Part shown: positions 3,823 to 29,791 of the stretch, piece by piece
How positions within the stretch are numbered: the first letter of the stretch is position 1
How the letters are laid out: every line of letters starts with the position of its first letter
Origin: an uncultured Planctomycetia bacterium
GTDB lineage: Bacteria > Planctomycetota > MHYJ01 > WSZJ01
Reading direction: 5' to 3'
Assembly (NCBI GenBank): GCA_963706735.1
Contig: CAVPNQ010000116.1
Location: forward strand, 2,704-66,703
Length of the DNA stretch: 64,000 nt
Translations under genes and position numbers: made by a program
Notes under the pieces: generated by a model
Told to the model about the DNA's origin: nothing
Seen by the model: the letters and a program-made list of their open reading frames with translations, nothing else
The model's database searches: none

Positions 3823-3921
3823 CCCTTAACCTCAACCTTTCCCTTTTCCTATCCCTGGTTCCCGAGCAGGCCCATGGGCCCGGAGAGGGGAAAGGAAAAG
3901 GGGAAGGTTAAGGTTAAGGGG
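3823..3921. repeat. long hairpin with low-complexity arms (CCCTTAACC family, copy 1)
   Basis: CCCTTAACCTCAACCTTTCCCTTTTCCTATCCC pairs with GGGAAAGGAAAAGGGGAAGGTTAAGGTTAAGGGG. The loop contains GGCCCATGGGCC. A second copy lies at 29620-29736. Confidence 0.8.
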
Positions 3922-13319: not shown

Positions 13320-13448
13320 CTGGATGTTCGCCGGACGGGGTCAACACTTCGGGCCGAAGCGAAATAAAAAGCGCTTCGGCCCTTCGTGTTGGCGGCCGCC
13401 GGTCGAAGTCGTGGCGATCCCGGATCGAGGTGGTTGAGGAGGCCTGCG

Positions 13449-14642
13449 GTGCGAAATAAAAACATCGACGTTTCGAGCGACGTCGCGCGGATCCGGAAGG
13501 ACATGGTCGAGTGCCGGCGGGATCTGCACGCGCACCCGGAGATGGCGTTCCGGGAGGTGAGGACTGCTCGCGTCGTCGCTTCGCGACTCCGCTCGCTTGG
13601 GGTGGCGGTGCGGGAAGGCGTCGCGAAAACGGGAGTTGTGGGAGTCATCAAGGGCGGGCTGCCCGGACCCGTCGTGGCTTTGCGCGCGGACATGGATGCG
13701 CTTCCGATCATCGAGAAGGAAAAGAAGAGCTACCGGTCGGGGACGCCGGGCGTGATGCACGCTTGCGGGCATGACGGGCACGTCGCGATCCTGCTCGGCG
13801 TGGCGGACGTGCTTTCGAAGCGGAAGGCGAACCTGCGCGGGTCGGTGAAGCTGATTTTCCAGCCGGCCGAGGAATCGCCGGGCGGAGCGGAGCCGATGAT
13901 CAAGGCGGGCGCGCTGAAGAATCCCGACGTGGACGCGATCTTCGGCCTGCACATGTGGAACGACTTCCCCGTCGGCCGGCTCGGGGTGCGCCCGGGCCCG
14001 CTTCTCGCGGCGGCGGACAAGTTCGAGATCACGATCACCGCGAAGGGCGGCCACGGCGCCGCGCCGCACCAGACCGCCGACCCGATCCTCGCAGCGGTGC
14101 ACGCGATCCAGGCGCTTCAGGCCATCTCCAGCCGCCTCGTCGATCCGTTGCAGCCCGTCGTCTGCTCCGTCGGGCGCATCAAGGGCGGCGACGCGTTCAA
14201 CGTGATCCCGAACAAGGTCGAGTTCGCCGGGACGATCCGGAGTTTCGACCCCAAGCTGCGGCCGCGCCTGCCGAAGATGGTGCGCGAACTGGTCGGCAAC
14301 GCGGTGCACGGGCTGGGGGCGGAGTTCGAGATGACCTACACGATGTACTACCCCGCGACGATCAACGACCCGGAGATGACCAAGGTCGTGGACGGAGTGG
14401 CGGAAGGGCTGGTAGGCGCGGAGCGGGTGGACCGGAACGTGCAGACGCTGGGCGGCGAGGACATGTCCTATTTCCTCAACGAGGTGCCGGGCTCGTTCTT
14501 CTTTCTGGGTTGCCGGAACGAGAAAAAGGGGCTTTGCGCGCCGCATCATTCCGACTTGTTCGATTTCGACGAGGAAGCTCTCCCGATCGGCGCAGAGATG
14601 CTCATCCGCACCGTCGAGCAATACTTCTCCCCCCCGAAGTAG
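13449..14642 (+). CDS. M20D-family amidohydrolase (N-acyl-amino-acid/hippurate hydrolase-like)
   Basis: DLHAHPE, ALRADMDALP, MHACGHDGH, IFQPAEE and GGEDMSYF motifs are present. The GTG at 13449 is preceded by GGAGG. Confidence 0.85.
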   Translation: MRNKNIDVSSDVARIRKDMVECRRDLHAHPEMAFREVRTARVVASRLRSLGVAVREGVAKTGVVGVIKGGLPGPVVALRADMDALPIIEKEKKSYRSGTPGVMHACGHDGHVAILLGVADVLSKRKANLRGSVKLIFQPAEESPGGAEPMIKAGALKNPDVDAIFGLHMWNDFPVGRLGVRPGPLLAAADKFEITITAKGGHGAAPHQTADPILAAVHAIQALQAISSRLVDPLQPVVCSVGRIKGGDAFNVIPNKVEFAGTIRSFDPKLRPRLPKMVRELVGNAVHGLGAEFEMTYTMYYPATINDPEMTKVVDGVAEGLVGAERVDRNVQTLGGEDMSYFLNEVPGSFFFLGCRNEKKGLCAPHHSDLFDFDEEALPIGAEMLIRTVEQYFSPPK

Positions 14643-14644
14643 CC

Positions 14645-14764
14645 GCGCCGGCAAAGCCGGCGCCCCGTACCCGTGCGCGTGCCCGTGCCCCTGCCCGGCA
14701 TTGCCGTTTTTCGCCGTACACCGCAACGGCCGGGCACGGGCACGGGCACGCGCACGGGAACGGG
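14645..14764. repeat. 19-nt GC hairpin plus a long hairpin with CCCGTGC-type arms
   Basis: GCGCCGGCAAAGCCGGCGC is followed by CCCGTACCCGTGCGCGTGCCCGTGCCCCTGCCCGG, which pairs with CCGGGCACGGGCACGGGCACGCGCACGGGAACGGG. Confidence 0.8.
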
Positions 14765-14845
14765 AGGGGCAAATATTTCAAACTTCCCCCTGTAAGATCC
14801 CTGCCTCCCAGCGTCTCTACTCCGTACGCCACCTAAAGGACGCCG

Positions 14846-15415
14846 ATGACCGAACAGGAACTCGTGGACCGGCTGGCCGCCGGCGACCGCACCGCGGTCG
14901 CTCCGCTCCTCGCCGCCCACGAAGCCCCCCTGCTCCGCTTCTCGGCCGCCCTTCTCGGCGACGCCGCCCTCGCCCAGGACGCCGTGCAGGAGACCTTCCT
15001 GCGCGTCATCCGCGAAGGCGGACGGTTGCGCGAAGTGAAGGCGCTCTTTCCCTGGCTCCTTCAGGTCACCCGCAACATCTGCCACGACCTGCGACGCAAG
15101 GAGACGCGGATGGAACGGAAACACGAGGCCGCCGCGGTGCTGGAGCCGCGTCCAGCGGAAGCGGCCGCCGACACCCGCGCGCTCGACGGCGAGCTGCGCG
15201 ACCGCGTCCAGGCCGCCGTCGCCGGCCTCCCCGAGAAACAGCGCGAAGTCCTGCGCCTCAAGCTCTGGGAAGGGCTGACCTACCGCGAGATCGCCGAACG
15301 GCTGGAAATGACGCTGACAAACGTGAGCTACCACCTCGGGCAGGCGGTCAAGGCCGTCGGGGGCCGGCTTCGGGAGGCGGGGCTCGTCGGGGATGAACAT
15401 AGGAGGGCGCTGTGA
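14846..15415 (+). CDS. ECF-type RNA polymerase sigma factor
   Basis: Region 2 (DAVQETFLRV...WLLQVTRNICHD) and region 4 (LPEKQREVLRLKLWEGLTYREIAERLEMTLTNVSYHL) are recognisable. Confidence 0.85.
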   Translation: MTEQELVDRLAAGDRTAVAPLLAAHEAPLLRFSAALLGDAALAQDAVQETFLRVIREGGRLREVKALFPWLLQVTRNICHDLRRKETRMERKHEAAAVLEPRPAEAAADTRALDGELRDRVQAAVAGLPEKQREVLRLKLWEGLTYREIAERLEMTLTNVSYHLGQAVKAVGGRLREAGLVGDEHRRAL

Positions 15416-26830: not shown

Positions 26831-27883
26831 CTACCCCATCGCCCTCGCGCGGAGCTGCCCGCAGCCCGCGGCGATGTCGATGCCCTTCTCCATCCGCACC
26901 GTGCTCGGCACGCCGTATTCGCGCAGGATTTCCTGGAACGCATCCGACCGTGCGTCGGGCGGGCGGGCGAACGGCCCGCCGTCGGTCGGGTTGACGGGGA
27001 TCAGGTTGACGTGGCACGCGGTCCCCGCGAGCAGTTCTCCCAGCGCGCGCGCCTGCTCCGGCGCGTCGTTCTTCCCCGCCATGAGGACGTACTCGTAAAA
27101 AACCCGCCGCCCCGTGATCTCCGCGTACTGCCGGCAGGCTTCCAGAAGTTCCGCCACCGGGTACCGACGGTTGACCGGCAGGATCGCGGCGCGCGTGGCG
27201 TCGTCGGGGGCGTGAAGCGACACGGCGAGGTGGGTGGCGAGAGGTTCGCGGGCGAAGCGGAGGATTTCGGGGACGAGGCCGACGGTGGAGACGGTGATGC
27301 GGCGGGTGCCGAGGTGGAGGCCGCGGCCGTCGCAGAGGATGGCGATGGCCTTGAGGGTGCGGTCGTAGTTGGCGAAGGGTTCGCCCATCCCCATGAAGAC
27401 GGCGTTGGTGAGCTCCGAATTCTCGGCGCGGGCGATCCGCGCGGCCCAGACCGCCTGCGCGACGATCTCGCCCGCGGAGAGGTTGCGCCGGAACCCCTGC
27501 TGGCCGGTCGCGCAGAACGTGCACCCCATGGCGCACCCGGCCTGCGTGGACACGCAGACCGTGCGGCGGCTGCGGCGGTGGCCGTCGGCCTCGTAACGCA
27601 TCAGCACGGTCTCGATCAGCTCGCCGTCGGGGAGGCGGAAGAGCGCCTTGTCGGTGGATCCGTCCGCAGAAGTGCGGTGCACGACGGTCTCCAGCGGGTC
27701 GATCGAGAACCGCGCTTCCAGCCCTCCGGCCTTCCCGAACGTGGTCGCGCCTTCGCGGTGGATCGACTTGAAAAGCTGCTCCGCCGCGGGGCGCTTGAGC
27801 CCGTGCTCGGCCGCGGCCGCGACGAGTTCGTCGCGGGAGAGGTCGAGGACGGTGGGCTGTGATGCGGGCGAGCCAGTTGCCAT
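26831..27883 (-). CDS. rlmN: 23S rRNA/tRNA (adenine-C2)-methyltransferase, radical SAM
   Basis: CVSTQAGCAMGCTFCATGQQG, NAVFMGMGEPFANY, STVGL, LAVSLHA and NLIPVNP are present. The start MATGSP is at 27883. Confidence 0.9.
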   Translation of the reverse strand: MATGSPASQPTVLDLSRDELVAAAAEHGLKRPAAEQLFKSIHREGATTFGKAGGLEARFSIDPLETVVHRTSADGSTDKALFRLPDGELIETVLMRYEADGHRRSRRTVCVSTQAGCAMGCTFCATGQQGFRRNLSAGEIVAQAVWAARIARAENSELTNAVFMGMGEPFANYDRTLKAIAILCDGRGLHLGTRRITVSTVGLVPEILRFAREPLATHLAVSLHAPDDATRAAILPVNRRYPVAELLEACRQYAEITGRRVFYEYVLMAGKNDAPEQARALGELLAGTACHVNLIPVNPTDGGPFARPPDARSDAFQEILREYGVPSTVRMEKGIDIAAGCGQLRARAMG

Positions 27884-27954
27884 GTCGCCGGATTCTACAG
27901 GTTCTCGCGCGAGGGGCTCGAATGGCATGCCCGGCGCAGCTTTCCTGTCCTTTT

Positions 27955-28015
27955 TTTCTCTCTTTTGCTTTTGGCGTTTGGCTTTGTGTTTCGCCGTTTT
28001 GAGTTTGCCCTTTCG
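27955..28015. repeat. CAAA-rich 60-bp dispersed repeat (copy 2, inverted)
   Basis: Its reverse complement CGAAAGGGCAAACTCAAAACGGCGAAACACAAAGCCAAACGCCAAAAGCAAAAGAGAGAAA matches 13008-13067. Confidence 0.8.
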
Positions 28016-28142
28016 GGGCCCGGATAAACGCCAGACACAGGAACCGTACCCGGCGCCATCAATCCGCCTGAACTCGGATCGTGAATAGTCCCCGTTCCTA
28101 TCTGTTAGGGATCGCCGCCCCTTCGGGTACATTTCCCGCCCC

Positions 28143-29585
28143 ATGCGCAGGATCATTCTGGCCTACGTCGTCGCCGTGGCGCTCTTCGCGATCGGTATCA
28201 CGTTCGCCCTCCGCGCCGGTCGCGGACTCCCCTCCCCTGCCCAAGCCCCGGGCGCCTCGGCCCACGCCGCAGTACAGCCTGCGGAAGCGCCGCCGCTGTG
28301 GTCCGGGCTGCGCGAGAATGCACGCGATCCCCTCAGCCGGCTGCTGCTCCAGTTCATCGTCATCATCCTGGCCGCGCGCGGCATGGGCTGGCTCTTCACG
28401 CGCATCGGCCAGCCGTCGGTCATCGGGGAAATCGCCGCCGGGATCCTGCTCGGCCCCTCGCTTCTCGGCTGGATCTGGCCGGACGCCGTCGCGTTCGTCT
28501 TCGCGAAGGACTCGCTGGGCACGCTCCGACTCTTCAGCCAGATCGGCGTCTGCGTGTTCATGTTCGTCGTCGGCATGGAGCTCAAGGTTTCGCACCTGCG
28601 CGACAAGGCGCACACCGCGGTCGTCATCAGCCACGCGGGGATCATGGTCCCGTACCTGCTCGGGGTCACGGCGTCGATCTTCCTGTACACGCACTTCGCG
28701 GGCCGGGGCACGACGTTCCCCGAGTTCGCGCTGTTCATGGGGATCGCCATGAGCATCACGGCGTTCCCCGTGCTCGTCCGCATCCTCGAGGAACGGGGAA
28801 TGGACAAGACGTTCCTGGGGAGCACCGCGATCACCTGCGCCGCCGTCGAGGACGCAACCGCGTGGGCGGTCCTCGCCTTCGTCGTCGCCATGGTCCGCGC
28901 CACCGGGCTCTCCTCGACGTTCTTCAACCTGGCGCTCGTCGCCGTCTTCGTCGCGGTCATGCTCGGCGGCGTCCGGCCGCTGCTGCAGCGGAGGATGGAA
29001 GCGGTGCCGGAGGGGCAATCCCCGTCCCGTGGTCTCATCGCGGCGGTTCTCGTGTTTATGAGCGCGTGCGCGCTGGCGACCGAGGTCATCGGCATCCACG
29101 CGATCTTCGGCGCGTTCCTCGCCGGCGTCGTCATGCCGCGCCGGAAGGCCTTCCGCGACGACCTCACCCTCCGGCTCGGGAACTTCAGCAGCGTCTTCCT
29201 CCTGCCGCTCTTCTTCGCCTTCAGCGGCCTGCGCACGCAGATCGGCCTCCTCAACGACGCCGCGAGCTGGCTGATCGCCCTCGCCATCATCGGCGTCGCC
29301 GTCGCAGGCAAGCTCGGCGGCTGCATGCTCACCGCCCGCTTCACCGGCCTCTCCTGGCTCGACTCCTTCTCGATCGGTGCGCTCATGAACACCCGCGGCC
29401 TCGTCGAGCTCATCGCCCTCAACATCGGCTACGACCTCGGGATCCTCCCCCCGCGCATCTTCACCATGATGGTCCTCATGGCCCTCGCGACGACGTTCAT
29501 GACAGGGCCGCTGCTCAGCGTGGCGGAGAGATTGAAGCGCCGTGCGGCTGCGAATCCGCCACCGGGGACTGCGCCGGCCGCTTAA
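28143..29585 (+). CDS. monovalent cation:proton antiporter (CPA2/Kef-type membrane domain)
   Basis: A polytopic 480-aa protein with QPSVIGEIAAGILLGPS, FMFVVGMEL and NTRGLVELI motifs. Confidence 0.85.
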   Translation: MRRIILAYVVAVALFAIGITFALRAGRGLPSPAQAPGASAHAAVQPAEAPPLWSGLRENARDPLSRLLLQFIVIILAARGMGWLFTRIGQPSVIGEIAAGILLGPSLLGWIWPDAVAFVFAKDSLGTLRLFSQIGVCVFMFVVGMELKVSHLRDKAHTAVVISHAGIMVPYLLGVTASIFLYTHFAGRGTTFPEFALFMGIAMSITAFPVLVRILEERGMDKTFLGSTAITCAAVEDATAWAVLAFVVAMVRATGLSSTFFNLALVAVFVAVMLGGVRPLLQRRMEAVPEGQSPSRGLIAAVLVFMSACALATEVIGIHAIFGAFLAGVVMPRRKAFRDDLTLRLGNFSSVFLLPLFFAFSGLRTQIGLLNDAASWLIALAIIGVAVAGKLGGCMLTARFTGLSWLDSFSIGALMNTRGLVELIALNIGYDLGILPPRIFTMMVLMALATTFMTGPLLSVAERLKRRAAANPPPGTAPAA

Positions 29586-29619
29586 GTTGATACTCCGAAC
29601 GGCTCGCGAGATCGGCAGC

Positions 29620-29736
29620 GCCCTTAACCTTAACCTTTCCCTTTCCCTTTTCCTTTCCCGGCCTTTCGCCTGTGAGAAACGGCGGGTTAAGGAAAAGGGA
29701 AAGGTAAAGGTTAAGGGGCGCCGGCTTTGCCGGCGC
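29620..29736. repeat. long hairpin (CCCTTAACC family, copy 2) plus the 19-nt GC hairpin
   Basis: GCCCTTAACCTTAACCTTTCCCTTTCCCTTTTCCTTTCCC pairs with GGGTTAAGGAAAAGGGAAAGGTAAAGGTTAAGGGGC. It is followed by GCGCCGGCTTTGCCGGCGC, the exact reverse complement of 14645-14663. Confidence 0.8.
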
Positions 29737-29791
29737 GGGGACGAGAATGAGATCGTGTGGCGATTCCCTGACGTTGAGACACAATCGCGGC

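What the first reader, a model, noticed from the sequence alone, without database searches (positions are those of the whole stretch)
14645..14764. Same architecture, different arm sequence: 19-nt GC hairpin plus a CCCGTGC-periodic long hairpin
Three nt after the amidohydrolase stop lies GCGCCGGCAAAGCCGGCGC. It is followed by a hairpin with arms of about 35 bp made of GCCCGT/GCGCGT-like units (CCCGTACCCGTGCGCGTGCCCGTGCCCCTGCCCGG / CCGGGCACGGGCACGGGCACGCGCACGGGAACGGG).

The small hairpin is identical, in inverse orientation, to the one beside the CCCTTAACC element at 29718-29736. The long arms are unrelated in sequence to that element's arms.

Conserved architecture with divergent periodic arms is unusual. 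It suggests either a generating mechanism (slippage plus palindromisation) or selection on structure rather than sequence.
Basis: seen in the sequence. Interest (0 to 1): 0.6.

Follow-up and report, generated by a model that had tools for sequence, protein, structure and literature searches.

The report
Cap hairpin beside swappable IVS-like palindrome
A short GC hairpin after a peptidase gene is a retained "cap" next to a long palindromic repeat that was exchanged for another family member between sister planctomycete species, giving a tractable view of how palindromes like ribosomal-RNA intervening sequences spread and turn over.

Summary
The 19-mer GCGCCGGC-AAA/TTT-GCCGGCGC occurs only twice in this 5.3 Mb Planctomycetia genome, each time touching a ~100-nt hairpin with periodic arms.

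It is not a chance pair, a terminator, or a convergent design. About 300 long hairpins exist here. Gene-bearing versions enclose the four-helix-bundle S23p/PF05635 protein of 23S rRNA intervening sequences, or GxxExxY nuclease-fold genes. In the two CCC-hexamer families, short GC caps abut the outer ends, at strict scan in 16 of 76. All 16 have a purine-rich loop on the strand running into the C-rich arm.

The arms are related: 25/40 identical in one 6-nt frame.

In two sister species the same 19-mer follows the same stop codon but is followed by the CCCTTAACC hairpin. So the cap stayed and the long hairpin was replaced. Of 17 assessable CCCGTG loci, 14 hold another family in the sister species.

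Site 2 lies at a lineage-specific rearrangement junction.

The mechanism (copying over existing hairpins) is inferred. No transcript data could be obtained.

This scan had already noted the same repeat superfamily on this window and another piece of the genome.

The parts
13386..14642 (+). Upstream gene: M20-family peptidase/amidohydrolase, stop TAG at 14640-14642
   Evidence: ORF and translation. Pfam Peptidase_M20 1.1e-45 plus M20_dimer. Orthologues found in 6 of 7 genus members.
14645..14663 (+). Cap hairpin (the 19-mer): 8-bp GC stem, AAA loop, abutting the long hairpin with no gap
   Evidence: An identical 19-mer sits at the orthologous position in G003 and G005.
14664..14698 (+). Left (C-rich) arm of the family-A long hairpin: hexamer units CCCGTA-CCCGTG-CGCGTG-CCCGTG-CCCCTG-CCCGG
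   Evidence: About 25 family-A loci in the genome share this unit order.
14699..14729 (+). Loop, unique to this copy, containing the superfamily's apical motif GCCGTTT (14703-14709)
   Evidence: The loop has no other match in the genome. The GCCGTT/AACGGC motif is in 80 of 300 hairpin apices against about 20 in controls.
14730..14764 (+). Right (G-rich) arm of the family-A hairpin
14765..14789 (+). AT-rich 25-nt stretch AGGGGCAAATATTTCAAACTTCCCC. It replaces about 70 nt (right cap plus terminator-like hairpin) present in G003 and G005, and is part of the segment exchanged in this lineage.
   Evidence: Spacer comparison. Unique in the genome.
14846..15415 (+). Downstream gene: ECF-type sigma factor
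   Evidence: Pfam Sigma70_r2, r4_2 and ECF. Orthologous in G003, G005, G001 and G002.
29621..29717 (-). Family-B (CCCTTAACC) long hairpin of site 2. Read on the minus strand it follows the cap.
29718..29736 (-). Second copy of the 19-mer cap (AAA loop on the minus strand), 55 nt upstream of the conserved ATG (29792) of a DUF2721 gene
   Evidence: Absent from the orthologous spacers of G003, G001 and G002.
28143..29585 (+). Na+/H+ exchanger gene in a ~1.9 kb block specific to this genome. Site 2 is the block's right-hand junction.
   Evidence: Pfam Na_H_Exchanger. Relatives hold only 36-38% paralogues. Synteny break at window 27870-29778 against 6.3 kb in G003.
3823..3920 (.). A further family-B hairpin in the window, without a cap
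   Evidence: C116:6526-6623.

Best explanation
**What it is.** The feature is a two-module palindromic repeat in the spacer after an M20 peptidase gene of an uncultured Planctomycetia bacterium.

- **Long hairpin module.** This is one copy of family A (CCCGTG hexamer arms, about 25 loci). Family A belongs to a genome-wide superfamily of about 300 foldback repeats.
- **Full-length relatives.** These carry, between the same kinds of arms, the small four-helix-bundle S23p/PF05635 gene known from 23S rRNA intervening sequences, or a GxxExxY PD-(D/E)XK-fold gene. The gene-less hairpins are best read as non-autonomous derivatives.
- **Cap module.** The 19-mer is a short, very stable GC hairpin that sits flush against the outer end of A- and B-family hairpins. 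It behaves as a separable unit.

**History, shown by comparison.**
- The ancestor of this species and its sister had 19-mer + family-B hairpin after the peptidase gene.
- In this lineage the B hairpin and about 70 nt to its right were replaced by an A hairpin. The left breakpoint lies exactly at the cap/arm junction.
- A 19-mer + B composite now also lies at a lineage-specific rearrangement junction 15 kb away (site 2).
- Family A expanded in this genome mainly by overwriting hairpins of sister families at sites that were already occupied.

**How it works, inferred.**
- These are DNA-level selfish palindromes. They are copied into or over existing hairpins by recombination or template switching at extruded single-strand hairpins.
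- Caps, the shared CCC/GGG ends and the apical GCCGTT motif would provide the short homologies or recognition points.
- They persist because spacers just past stop codons tolerate them.
- When transcribed, RNase III cutting of the long stem is a likely by-product by analogy with rRNA intervening sequences. A cap would then be left as an end-protecting stem-loop.
For: **Uniqueness and abutment.**

**Family membership.**

**Cargo genes.**
- 6 of 7 PF05635 genes and 2 of 2 GxxExxY genes lie between periodic arms of the same families. This includes a B-armed copy with caps at both ends.

**Caps.**
- A strict scan finds 9 of 300 long hairpins with an abutting cap, against 0-3 in shifted controls. 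All are in families A and B at gap 0-1.
- 16 of 16 caps have a purine-rich loop on the strand reading cap to C-rich arm.
- 12 of 16 fit d(C-GNA-G), the extraordinarily stable DNA mini-hairpin (PMC13037366, PMC3201870).

**Cap kept while the long hairpin was swapped.**
- Seen at site 1 and at C97:7678 and C97:12805.
- Polarity: G000-G003 are 90% identical, and the outgroups G005 and G001 about 81%.

**Fate of A loci.** Of 17 A loci, G003 has another family at 14, A at 2, and an empty site at 1.

**Arm homology.**

**Site 2.** It is derived and lies at a synteny break.

**Position.** Median distance is 33 nt from a facing stop codon and 102 nt from a facing start.

**IVS precedent.** A 28-bp terminal stem, the S23p ORF in the loop, a variable number of heptamer repeats, and RNase III excision (PMC4990558).
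Against: - No enzyme is identified. No Y1/RAYT transposase was found, but the assembly is only 82.6% complete. PF05635 has no known catalytic role.
- No target-site duplication is evident at the two empty-versus-filled sites.
- No donor locus was found for the site-1 A copy. Its loop and right flank are unique.
- Loops differ between copies with near-identical arms, which a simple cut-and-paste or copy-paste element would not predict.
- Caps are found (strict scan) at about a fifth of A/B ends and on no other family's gene-bearing element.
- A hairpin of some family persists at site 1 in 5 of 7 genus members. This could equally mean selection for a structure there.
- The 23S rRNA gene is missing from the assembly, so a direct link to a true IVS is untested.
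- Gene calls used for the context statistics are my own crude GC3-based model.
- Repeat copies and genomes are not independent samples.
Confidence: 0.6

Rival explanations
1. Functional RNA element. The long stem is an intergenic RNase III processing or termination site that uncouples the peptidase and sigma-factor transcripts. The cap is the stem-loop that protects the new RNA end. Selection acts on structure, so the sequence can turn over.
For: - The hairpins hug 3' ends.
- Some long hairpin occupies site 1 in 5 of 7 genus members despite family turnover.
- Cap stems change less than loops between G000 and G003.
- IVS stems are RNase III substrates (PMC4990558).
- Folding is very strong.
Against: - No U-tract follows either hairpin.
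- On the sense strand of 156 tandem spacers, G.T mismatches (69) are fewer than A.C (107). This is the opposite of an RNA wobble signature.
- The cap-loop rule is two-fold symmetric (both ends, both strands), which fits DNA better than a one-directional transcript.
- At site 2 the cap faces the downstream gene's start, not a 3' end.
- Empty orthologous sites exist.
- 40 of the hairpins lie in divergent spacers.
Confidence: 0.2
2. The cap is a pre-existing hairpin (for example a gene's own 3' stem-loop) that serves as the insertion target of hairpin-seeking mobile palindromes. This would resemble class C group II introns or REP-targeting insertion sequences, which land next to stem-loops.
For: - The cap is conserved at site 1 and at two C97 loci while the adjacent long hairpin differs.
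- The abutment is exact, at gap 0-1.
- 14 of 17 A loci are at sites already holding a structure in the sister species.
Against: - At site 2 the cap appears together with the B hairpin, where relatives have neither.
- At C161 the cap is present with A in G000 but absent with the G-rich hairpin in G003.
- A and B copies occur without caps, and at sites that are empty and cap-less in G003: C73:30668 and C125.
- The gene-bearing B copy carries caps on both ends.
- I did not find a clear solo cap at an empty orthologous site.
Confidence: 0.12
3. Local genesis. Each long hairpin arises in place by replication slippage of a short unit, followed by palindromisation. The shared architecture would then reflect a recurring mutational process.
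For: - Unit number varies between copies.
- G003's copy at the C101 locus has (CCCTTT)6 joined to CCCGTG units on one arm only.
- The A, B and CCCTTKCCC families share one hexamer frame.
- The Coxiella IVS also varies in heptamer copy number.
Against: - 20 or more dispersed A copies share the same irregular order of variant units and the same apical sequence. The same holds for B. This requires copying between loci.
- The identical 19-mer with its flanking cc and CCC at two loci is not a slippage product.
Confidence: 0.06
4. Coincidence. The 19-mer is an ordinary GC-rich terminator-type stem that happens to lie next to two unrelated hairpins.
For:
- The stem with any loop is no commoner in the genus than a control palindrome.
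Against: - There are only two copies in this genome, both at gap 0 from a long hairpin.
- 0 of 123 copies in unrelated genomes abut a long hairpin.
- The same composite occurs at the orthologous site in two other species.
- 16 further caps obey the same geometry and loop polarity.
Confidence: 0.02

Closest known systems
23S rRNA intervening sequences (IVS) with an S23p/four-helix-bundle ORF (Coxiella, Leptospira, Salmonella; PMC4990558)
   Same: - Long terminal inverted repeats form a near-perfect stem.
- A small PF05635 ORF sits in the loop of full-length copies.
- Short tandem repeats of variable number occur within the element.
- Behaviour looks selfish or mobile, with no known mobility enzyme.
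- The stems would be good RNase III substrates.
   Different: - These copies lie between protein-coding genes, not in helix 25 or 45 of 23S rRNA.
- Most are gene-less, and there are hundreds of copies in many arm families.
- Short cap hairpins sit at the outer ends.
- GxxExxY genes are an alternative cargo.
- Excision at the RNA level is untested.
REP elements / REPINs with RAYT transposases (PMC3733652; Bertels and Rainey 2011, cited there)
   Same: - Dispersed extragenic palindromes just past stop codons.
- They form about 100-nt hairpins from two inverted halves.
- Families are lineage-specific.
- They are linked to a small gene flanked by the same repeats.
- They probably act through single-strand DNA hairpins.
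   Different: - No RAYT (PF01797) gene was found.
- No GTAG/CGTC head was seen on reading, though I ran no systematic search for one.
- Arms are low-complexity periodic arrays.
- Loops differ between copies.
- The associated genes are PF05635 and GxxExxY.
Bacterial MITEs / foldback elements (Correia, Nezha, etc.)
   Same: Short non-coding inverted-repeat elements in spacers. Related longer gene-bearing copies exist, and presence or absence varies between relatives.
   Different: - No target-site duplication is visible at two filled-versus-empty sites.
- No transposase is present.
- Spread is mostly by replacing a resident hairpin rather than by filling empty sites (14 of 17).
Extraordinarily stable DNA mini-hairpins d(GCGNAGC) (PMC13037366, PMC3201870)
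   Same: 12 of 16 caps have a GNA triloop closed by C-G inside a GC stem, on a defined strand.
   Different: The focal 19-mer has an AAA loop, so it does not itself fit the motif. The biological use of such mini-hairpins here is unknown.
Integron attC sites / class C group II intron targets (own knowledge)
   Same: Exchange or insertion of variable DNA occurs next to a conserved folded single-strand hairpin. A variable central part sits between conserved ends.
   Different: No integrase, reverse transcriptase or intron RNA is present. This is a resemblance by analogy only and was not tested.

Membership tests
23S rRNA intervening sequence (IVS) | Inserted in helix 25 or 45 of the 23S rRNA gene | tested here: not met
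   Both sites lie between protein-coding genes. No 23S gene is in the assembly for comparison.
23S rRNA intervening sequence (IVS) | Terminal inverted repeats forming a long stem that encloses an S23p/PF05635 ORF | tested here: inconclusive
   Met by relatives: 6 of 7 PF05635 genes, including a B-armed copy at C79:20992-21444. The two window elements are gene-less, and no A-armed gene-bearing copy was found.
23S rRNA intervening sequence (IVS) | Excision from the transcript by RNase III | not testable with these tools
REP/REPIN-RAYT | A RAYT (Y1 transposase, PF01797) gene in the genome, flanked by the repeats | tested here: not met
   No PF01797 match in G000, which is 82.6% complete. The control genomes did give matches.
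REP/REPIN-RAYT | Conserved GTAG or CGTC head on a 20-40 nt palindrome | not tested
   Caps start GCG.. or GGC.. and arms start CCC, and I saw no GTAG/CGTC tag on reading. I ran no systematic search for the tag, so this row is left as not tested.
MITE | Target-site duplication flanking the element, and a related transposase-bearing IS | tested here: not met
   No duplication at C73:30668 or C125 when compared with the empty G003 sites. Enclosed genes are PF05635, GxxExxY and unrelated cargo, with no transposase. Only two sites were available.
Intrinsic (Rho-independent) terminator | GC-rich stem-loop followed directly by a U-tract | tested here: not met
   No T-run follows the cap or the long hairpin at either site. 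The only hit is a weak internal one at the loop's GCCGTTTTT.
d(GCGNAGC) DNA mini-hairpin | GNA triloop closed by a C-G pair | tested here: not met
   The focal 19-mer has GC-AAA-GC. 12 of 16 sibling caps do meet the feature.
Any Rfam RNA family | Score at or above the family's gathering threshold | tested here: not met
   Only sub-threshold generic miRNA-precursor hairpin matches.

The most novel reading that the evidence does not exclude
The caps are functional ends of a previously undescribed hairpin-cassette exchange system. The small proteins carried by the full-length elements would act on extruded single-strand DNA hairpins. The candidates are a GxxExxY PD-(D/E)XK nuclease and/or the pentameric four-helix-bundle S23p/Avd-like protein. 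They would cut at the cap/arm junction and prime copying of another palindrome into the same anchor. That would be the long-sought mobility mechanism of rRNA intervening sequences, and it would explain genome-wide concerted replacement of one arm family by another between sister species.
Probability: 0.15. Interest if true: 0.85.

Novelty: new variant of a known kind. Interest (0 to 1): 0.6.

Why it matters
**An old open question.** How rRNA intervening sequences and their S23p genes arise and move has been open since about 1990 (PMC4990558).

**What this lineage offers.** This planctomycete genus has hundreds of IVS-like palindromes outside rRNA, including:
- gene-bearing and gene-less forms;
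- two alternative cargo proteins, one with a nuclease fold;
- a defined terminal cap;
- clear turnover between species that are 90% identical. Most copies of one family sit where a sister family sits in the sister species.

**Why that helps.** The mobility question becomes testable by comparative genomics and simple biochemistry.

**Practical points.**
- These elements explain why spacers in these genomes are long.
- They mark rearrangement junctions.
- They break short-read assemblies.

**If ordinary.** Even if the elements prove to be plain selfish DNA, retention of the cap while the palindrome is exchanged is an unusual pattern for bacterial repeats.

Tried and rejected
- **Rfam on both spacers.** Only sub-threshold miRNA-type hairpin matches.
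- **Canonical terminator or promoter.** None found.
- **RAYT/Y1 transposase as mobiliser.** Absent from the assembly.
- **23S rRNA gene, to look for a true IVS with such arms.** Not in the assembly.
- **The search for related loci with the peptidase.** It returned only distant phyla and left out near relatives, so it was useless for taxonomy. Taxonomy came instead from matching G003:C29 to CAZPWT010000029.1.
- **Donor search for the site-1 A copy.** Its loop and right flank are unique. An earlier fuzzy-regex version timed out.
- **Loop kept while arms are converted.** The only significant loop matches, at two C97 loci, are the family-wide apical consensus TGTCGTTCG. I therefore rejected this as evidence.
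- **Site 2 as a direct copy of the ancestral site-1 composite.** The idea is parsimonious for the identical cc + 19-mer + CCC. The loops give no support, and a GCGCCGGC-stem cap also occurs on another B copy (the C191 locus in G003). The source therefore stays open.
- **Caps on other families' gene-bearing elements.** None found.
- **Covariation statistics on caps.** Not run, because the caps were ascertained by their pairing, which would make the test circular.

Full report
**1. The observation**

The 19-mer GCGCCGGCAAAGCCGGCGC lies at 14645-14663. That is 2 nt after the TAG stop of an M20 peptidase/amidohydrolase gene. It runs straight into a hairpin with 35-nt arms (14664-14698 and 14730-14764) and a 31-nt loop.

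Its reverse-oriented twin lies at 29718-29736, flush against a CCCTTAACC-type hairpin at 29621-29717. Window shuffles expect 0.1 matches. The whole assembly has exactly these two copies. The assembly is 5.30 Mb in 203 contigs, 67.3% GC and 82.6% complete.

Both composites fold far better than shuffles, with z from -6 to -10.5. Read in the same orientation, the two share cc + 19-mer + CCC, then the arm, then an apical GCCGTTT.

**2. The long hairpins belong to a large superfamily**

- A genome-wide scan found about 300 loci with inverted-repeat arms of 24 nt or more and spacers up to 140 nt. About a third have clearly periodic arms, and they fall into several families.
- Site 1 belongs to family A, with about 25 loci that share the irregular unit order CCCGTA-CCCGTG-CGCGTG-CCCGTG-CCCGTG-CCCGG.
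- Site 2 belongs to family B, with about 18-20 loci.
- An apical GCCGTT/AACGGC motif occurs in 80 of 300 hairpins, against about 20 in flank or hairpin-free spacer controls.
- With my rough GC3-based gene model, the hairpins lie a median of 33 nt from a facing stop codon and 102 nt from a facing start. They are somewhat depleted in divergent spacers.
- Neither window hairpin is followed by a T-run. Rfam gives only sub-threshold miRNA-type matches.

**3. Link to intervening-sequence genes**

I tested this here.

- Six of seven PF05635/TIGR02436 four-helix-bundle genes lie between periodic arms of the same families as the gene-less hairpins. One of them (C79:20992-21444) has family-B arms.
- A scan for genes enclosed by long arms added both GxxExxY (TIGR04256/PF13366, PD-(D/E)XK fold) genes of the genome.
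- No Y1/RAYT transposase was found.
- The Coxiella IVS is described as a selfish element with a 28-bp terminal stem, the S23p ORF in the loop, a variable number of heptamer repeats, and RNase III excision (PMC4990558). This is the closest known relative in design.
- No 23S gene is in this assembly, so a direct comparison was not possible.

**4. The small hairpin is a recurrent cap module**

- Many A and B copies have a short GC hairpin flush against one or both outer ends, with different sequences at different loci. Examples are GCGCCGCC-AAA-GGCGGCGC, GCGGCGC-GGA-GCGCCGC, GGCGCGC-GAA-GCGCGCC and GTCGCCC-GGA-GGGCGAC. There is also a nested form, GCCCGCC-GAA-GCCGC-GAA-GCGGC-GAA-GGCGGGC.
- A strict scan found an abutting perfect cap at 9 of 300 long hairpins, against 0-3 in shifted controls and 2.1 at random positions. 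All nine are in families A and B at gap 0-1.
- A programmatic pass over the 76 outer ends of A and B elements found 16 caps. All 16 have a purine-rich loop on the strand that reads from cap into the C-rich arm: GGA x6, GCA x4, GAA x2, AAA x3 and CGAAT.
- Twelve of the 16 fit d(C-GNA-G), the extraordinarily stable DNA mini-hairpin (PMC13037366, PMC3201870). The window's 19-mer is the AAA variant.
- The gene-bearing B copy has caps at both ends. Gene-bearing elements of other families have none.
- Outside this lineage the 19-mer is a generic palindrome.
- Within the genus, the stem with any loop is no commoner than a control palindrome. Its non-coding copies almost all sit at a long hairpin.

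**5. The arms are related**

Aligned from the outer CCC to the inner GCCGTT, the A and B consensus arms have the same length and 6-nt frame, and 25 of 40 positions are identical. The 33-nt periodic core matches at 19/33, against a shuffle mean of 9.4/33; none of 20,000 shuffles reached it, and all other registers score lower. A CCCTTKCCC family is intermediate.

**6. Comparative genomics**

The genome belongs to a genus of uncultured Planctomycetia. G003's contig C29 is CAZPWT010000029.1, titled "uncultured Planctomycetia bacterium".

*Site 1.*
- Among 61 relatives, the 19-mer occurs only in G000, G003 and G005.
- In G003 and G005 it sits at the orthologous place, as peptidase stop + cc + 19-mer. 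There it is followed by a family-B hairpin, then a right-hand nested cap and further small hairpins.
- G001 and G006 carry yet other hairpin families at this site and no 19-mer.
- G000 and G003 are sisters at 90% identity. G005 and G001 lie outside at about 81%. So 19-mer + B is ancestral, and the A hairpin plus the 25 nt to its right is a replacement. Its left breakpoint is exactly at the cap/arm junction.

*Other loci.*
- The same pattern recurs at C97:7678 and C97:12805. Both the left cap and a right GGCTCGCTYCGCTCGC module are conserved between G000 and G003, while the long hairpin is A in G000 and B or CCCTTGCCC-type in G003.
- Of 17 assessable A loci in G000, G003 has a different family at 14 (CCCTTKCCC x6, B x3, others x5). 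It has A at 2, one of which is a hybrid with (CCCTTT)6 on one arm, and an empty site at 1.
- B loci are mostly conserved in both species, with their caps. One is empty in G003.
- Family A is abundant in G000 and rare in relatives.

*Site 2.*
- G003, G001 and G002 have neither the hairpin nor the 19-mer in front of the conserved DUF2721 gene.
- The element lies at the right junction of a ~1.9 kb block with a Na+/H+ exchanger gene. Relatives hold only 36-38% paralogues of that gene. The block replaces 6.3 kb of G003.

**7. DNA level or RNA level**

- In 156 tandem spacers oriented to the sense strand, G.T mismatches in the arms (69) are fewer than A.C (107). There is thus no wobble signature of RNA-level selection.
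- The cap-loop rule is two-fold symmetric, which also fits a DNA-level property better.
- Copies with near-identical arms have unrelated loops, and the site-1 loop and right flank are unique.
- Loop retention across swaps is not supported beyond the shared apical consensus.

**8. Reading**

*Shown.*
- The 19-mer is a cap module of a lineage-specific, IVS-like palindromic repeat superfamily.
- The two window copies share it by descent or copying.
- At site 1 the cap was kept while the long palindrome was exchanged.

*Inferred.*
- The elements are selfish DNA that is copied over resident hairpins by recombination or template switching at extruded hairpins. Caps, CCC/GGG ends and the apical motif would serve as short homologies or recognition points.
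- RNA-level effects, namely RNase III cutting with the cap left as an end-protecting stem, are plausible by analogy but untested.

*Caveats.*
- The assemblies are draft MAGs.
- The gene calls are crude.
- Repeat copies and genomes are not independent.
- No enzyme has been identified.

**9. Novelty**

My literature searches found no description of such elements in Planctomycetes, and none of cap-flanked IVS-like palindromes. I rate this a new variant of a known kind (IVS/foldback/REP-like repeats). Earlier agents of this scan had already noted the same superfamily on this window (site 2) and on another piece of the genome.

Noticed in passing
G000 contig C97:7757-9017 (outside the window): A 1.2 kb segment absent from G003 is bounded by two complete cap + family-A hairpins. 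It encodes a 376-aa protein with an excisionase-type HTH fused to a PilT/GspE-like secretion ATPase domain. It looks like a small insertion delimited by the palindromes.
   Followed up: partly
G000 contigs C108:2238-2876 and C60:16530-17087: Both GxxExxY (PD-(D/E)XK fold) genes of the genome sit between periodic arms (TCCGTGC-type and CATCCGCGACC-type). This is a second cargo class beside the four-helix-bundle genes.
   Followed up: partly
G003:C4:4946-5752 (locus L031): GAAGGCTGGCG-type arms enclose about 600 nt with a lipoprotein-like ORF, at the site where G000 has a gene-less A hairpin. Arms can therefore flank cargo other than IVS-type genes.
   Followed up: no
G003:C29:~69230-69400 (loci L263, L248): A hybrid hairpin. 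The left arm is (CCCTTT)6 followed by CCCGTG units, and the right arm is pure family A. This is direct evidence of unit-level slippage and mixing between arm families.
   Followed up: partly
Genome-wide, 156 tandem spacers: Arm mismatches show more A.C (107) than G.T (69) on the sense strand (p about 0.005, copies not independent). This is an unexplained strand asymmetry, possibly mutational.
   Followed up: no
G000 C53:27773-28339 and C133:1685-1967: Near-perfect palindromes with arms of 283 and 131 bp and almost no loop. They are unlike the periodic families and may be assembly fold-backs or a different element.
   Followed up: no
Loci L127-L206 (Rokubacteria/Methylomirabilota MAGs): The same 19-mer is embedded in a recurring context (..cctcccccc.ggat.cga.t [19-mer] tcgaa..). 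This suggests it is the core of a REP-like repeat in that phylum, unrelated to the planctomycete elements.
   Followed up: no
window 27870-29778: Synteny with G003 breaks here. G000 has a Na+/H+ exchanger gene (1.9 kb) where G003 has 6.3 kb of other genes. The cap + B hairpin marks the right junction.
   Followed up: partly
window 3823-3920: A further family-B hairpin without caps lies between two co-oriented genes.
   Followed up: no
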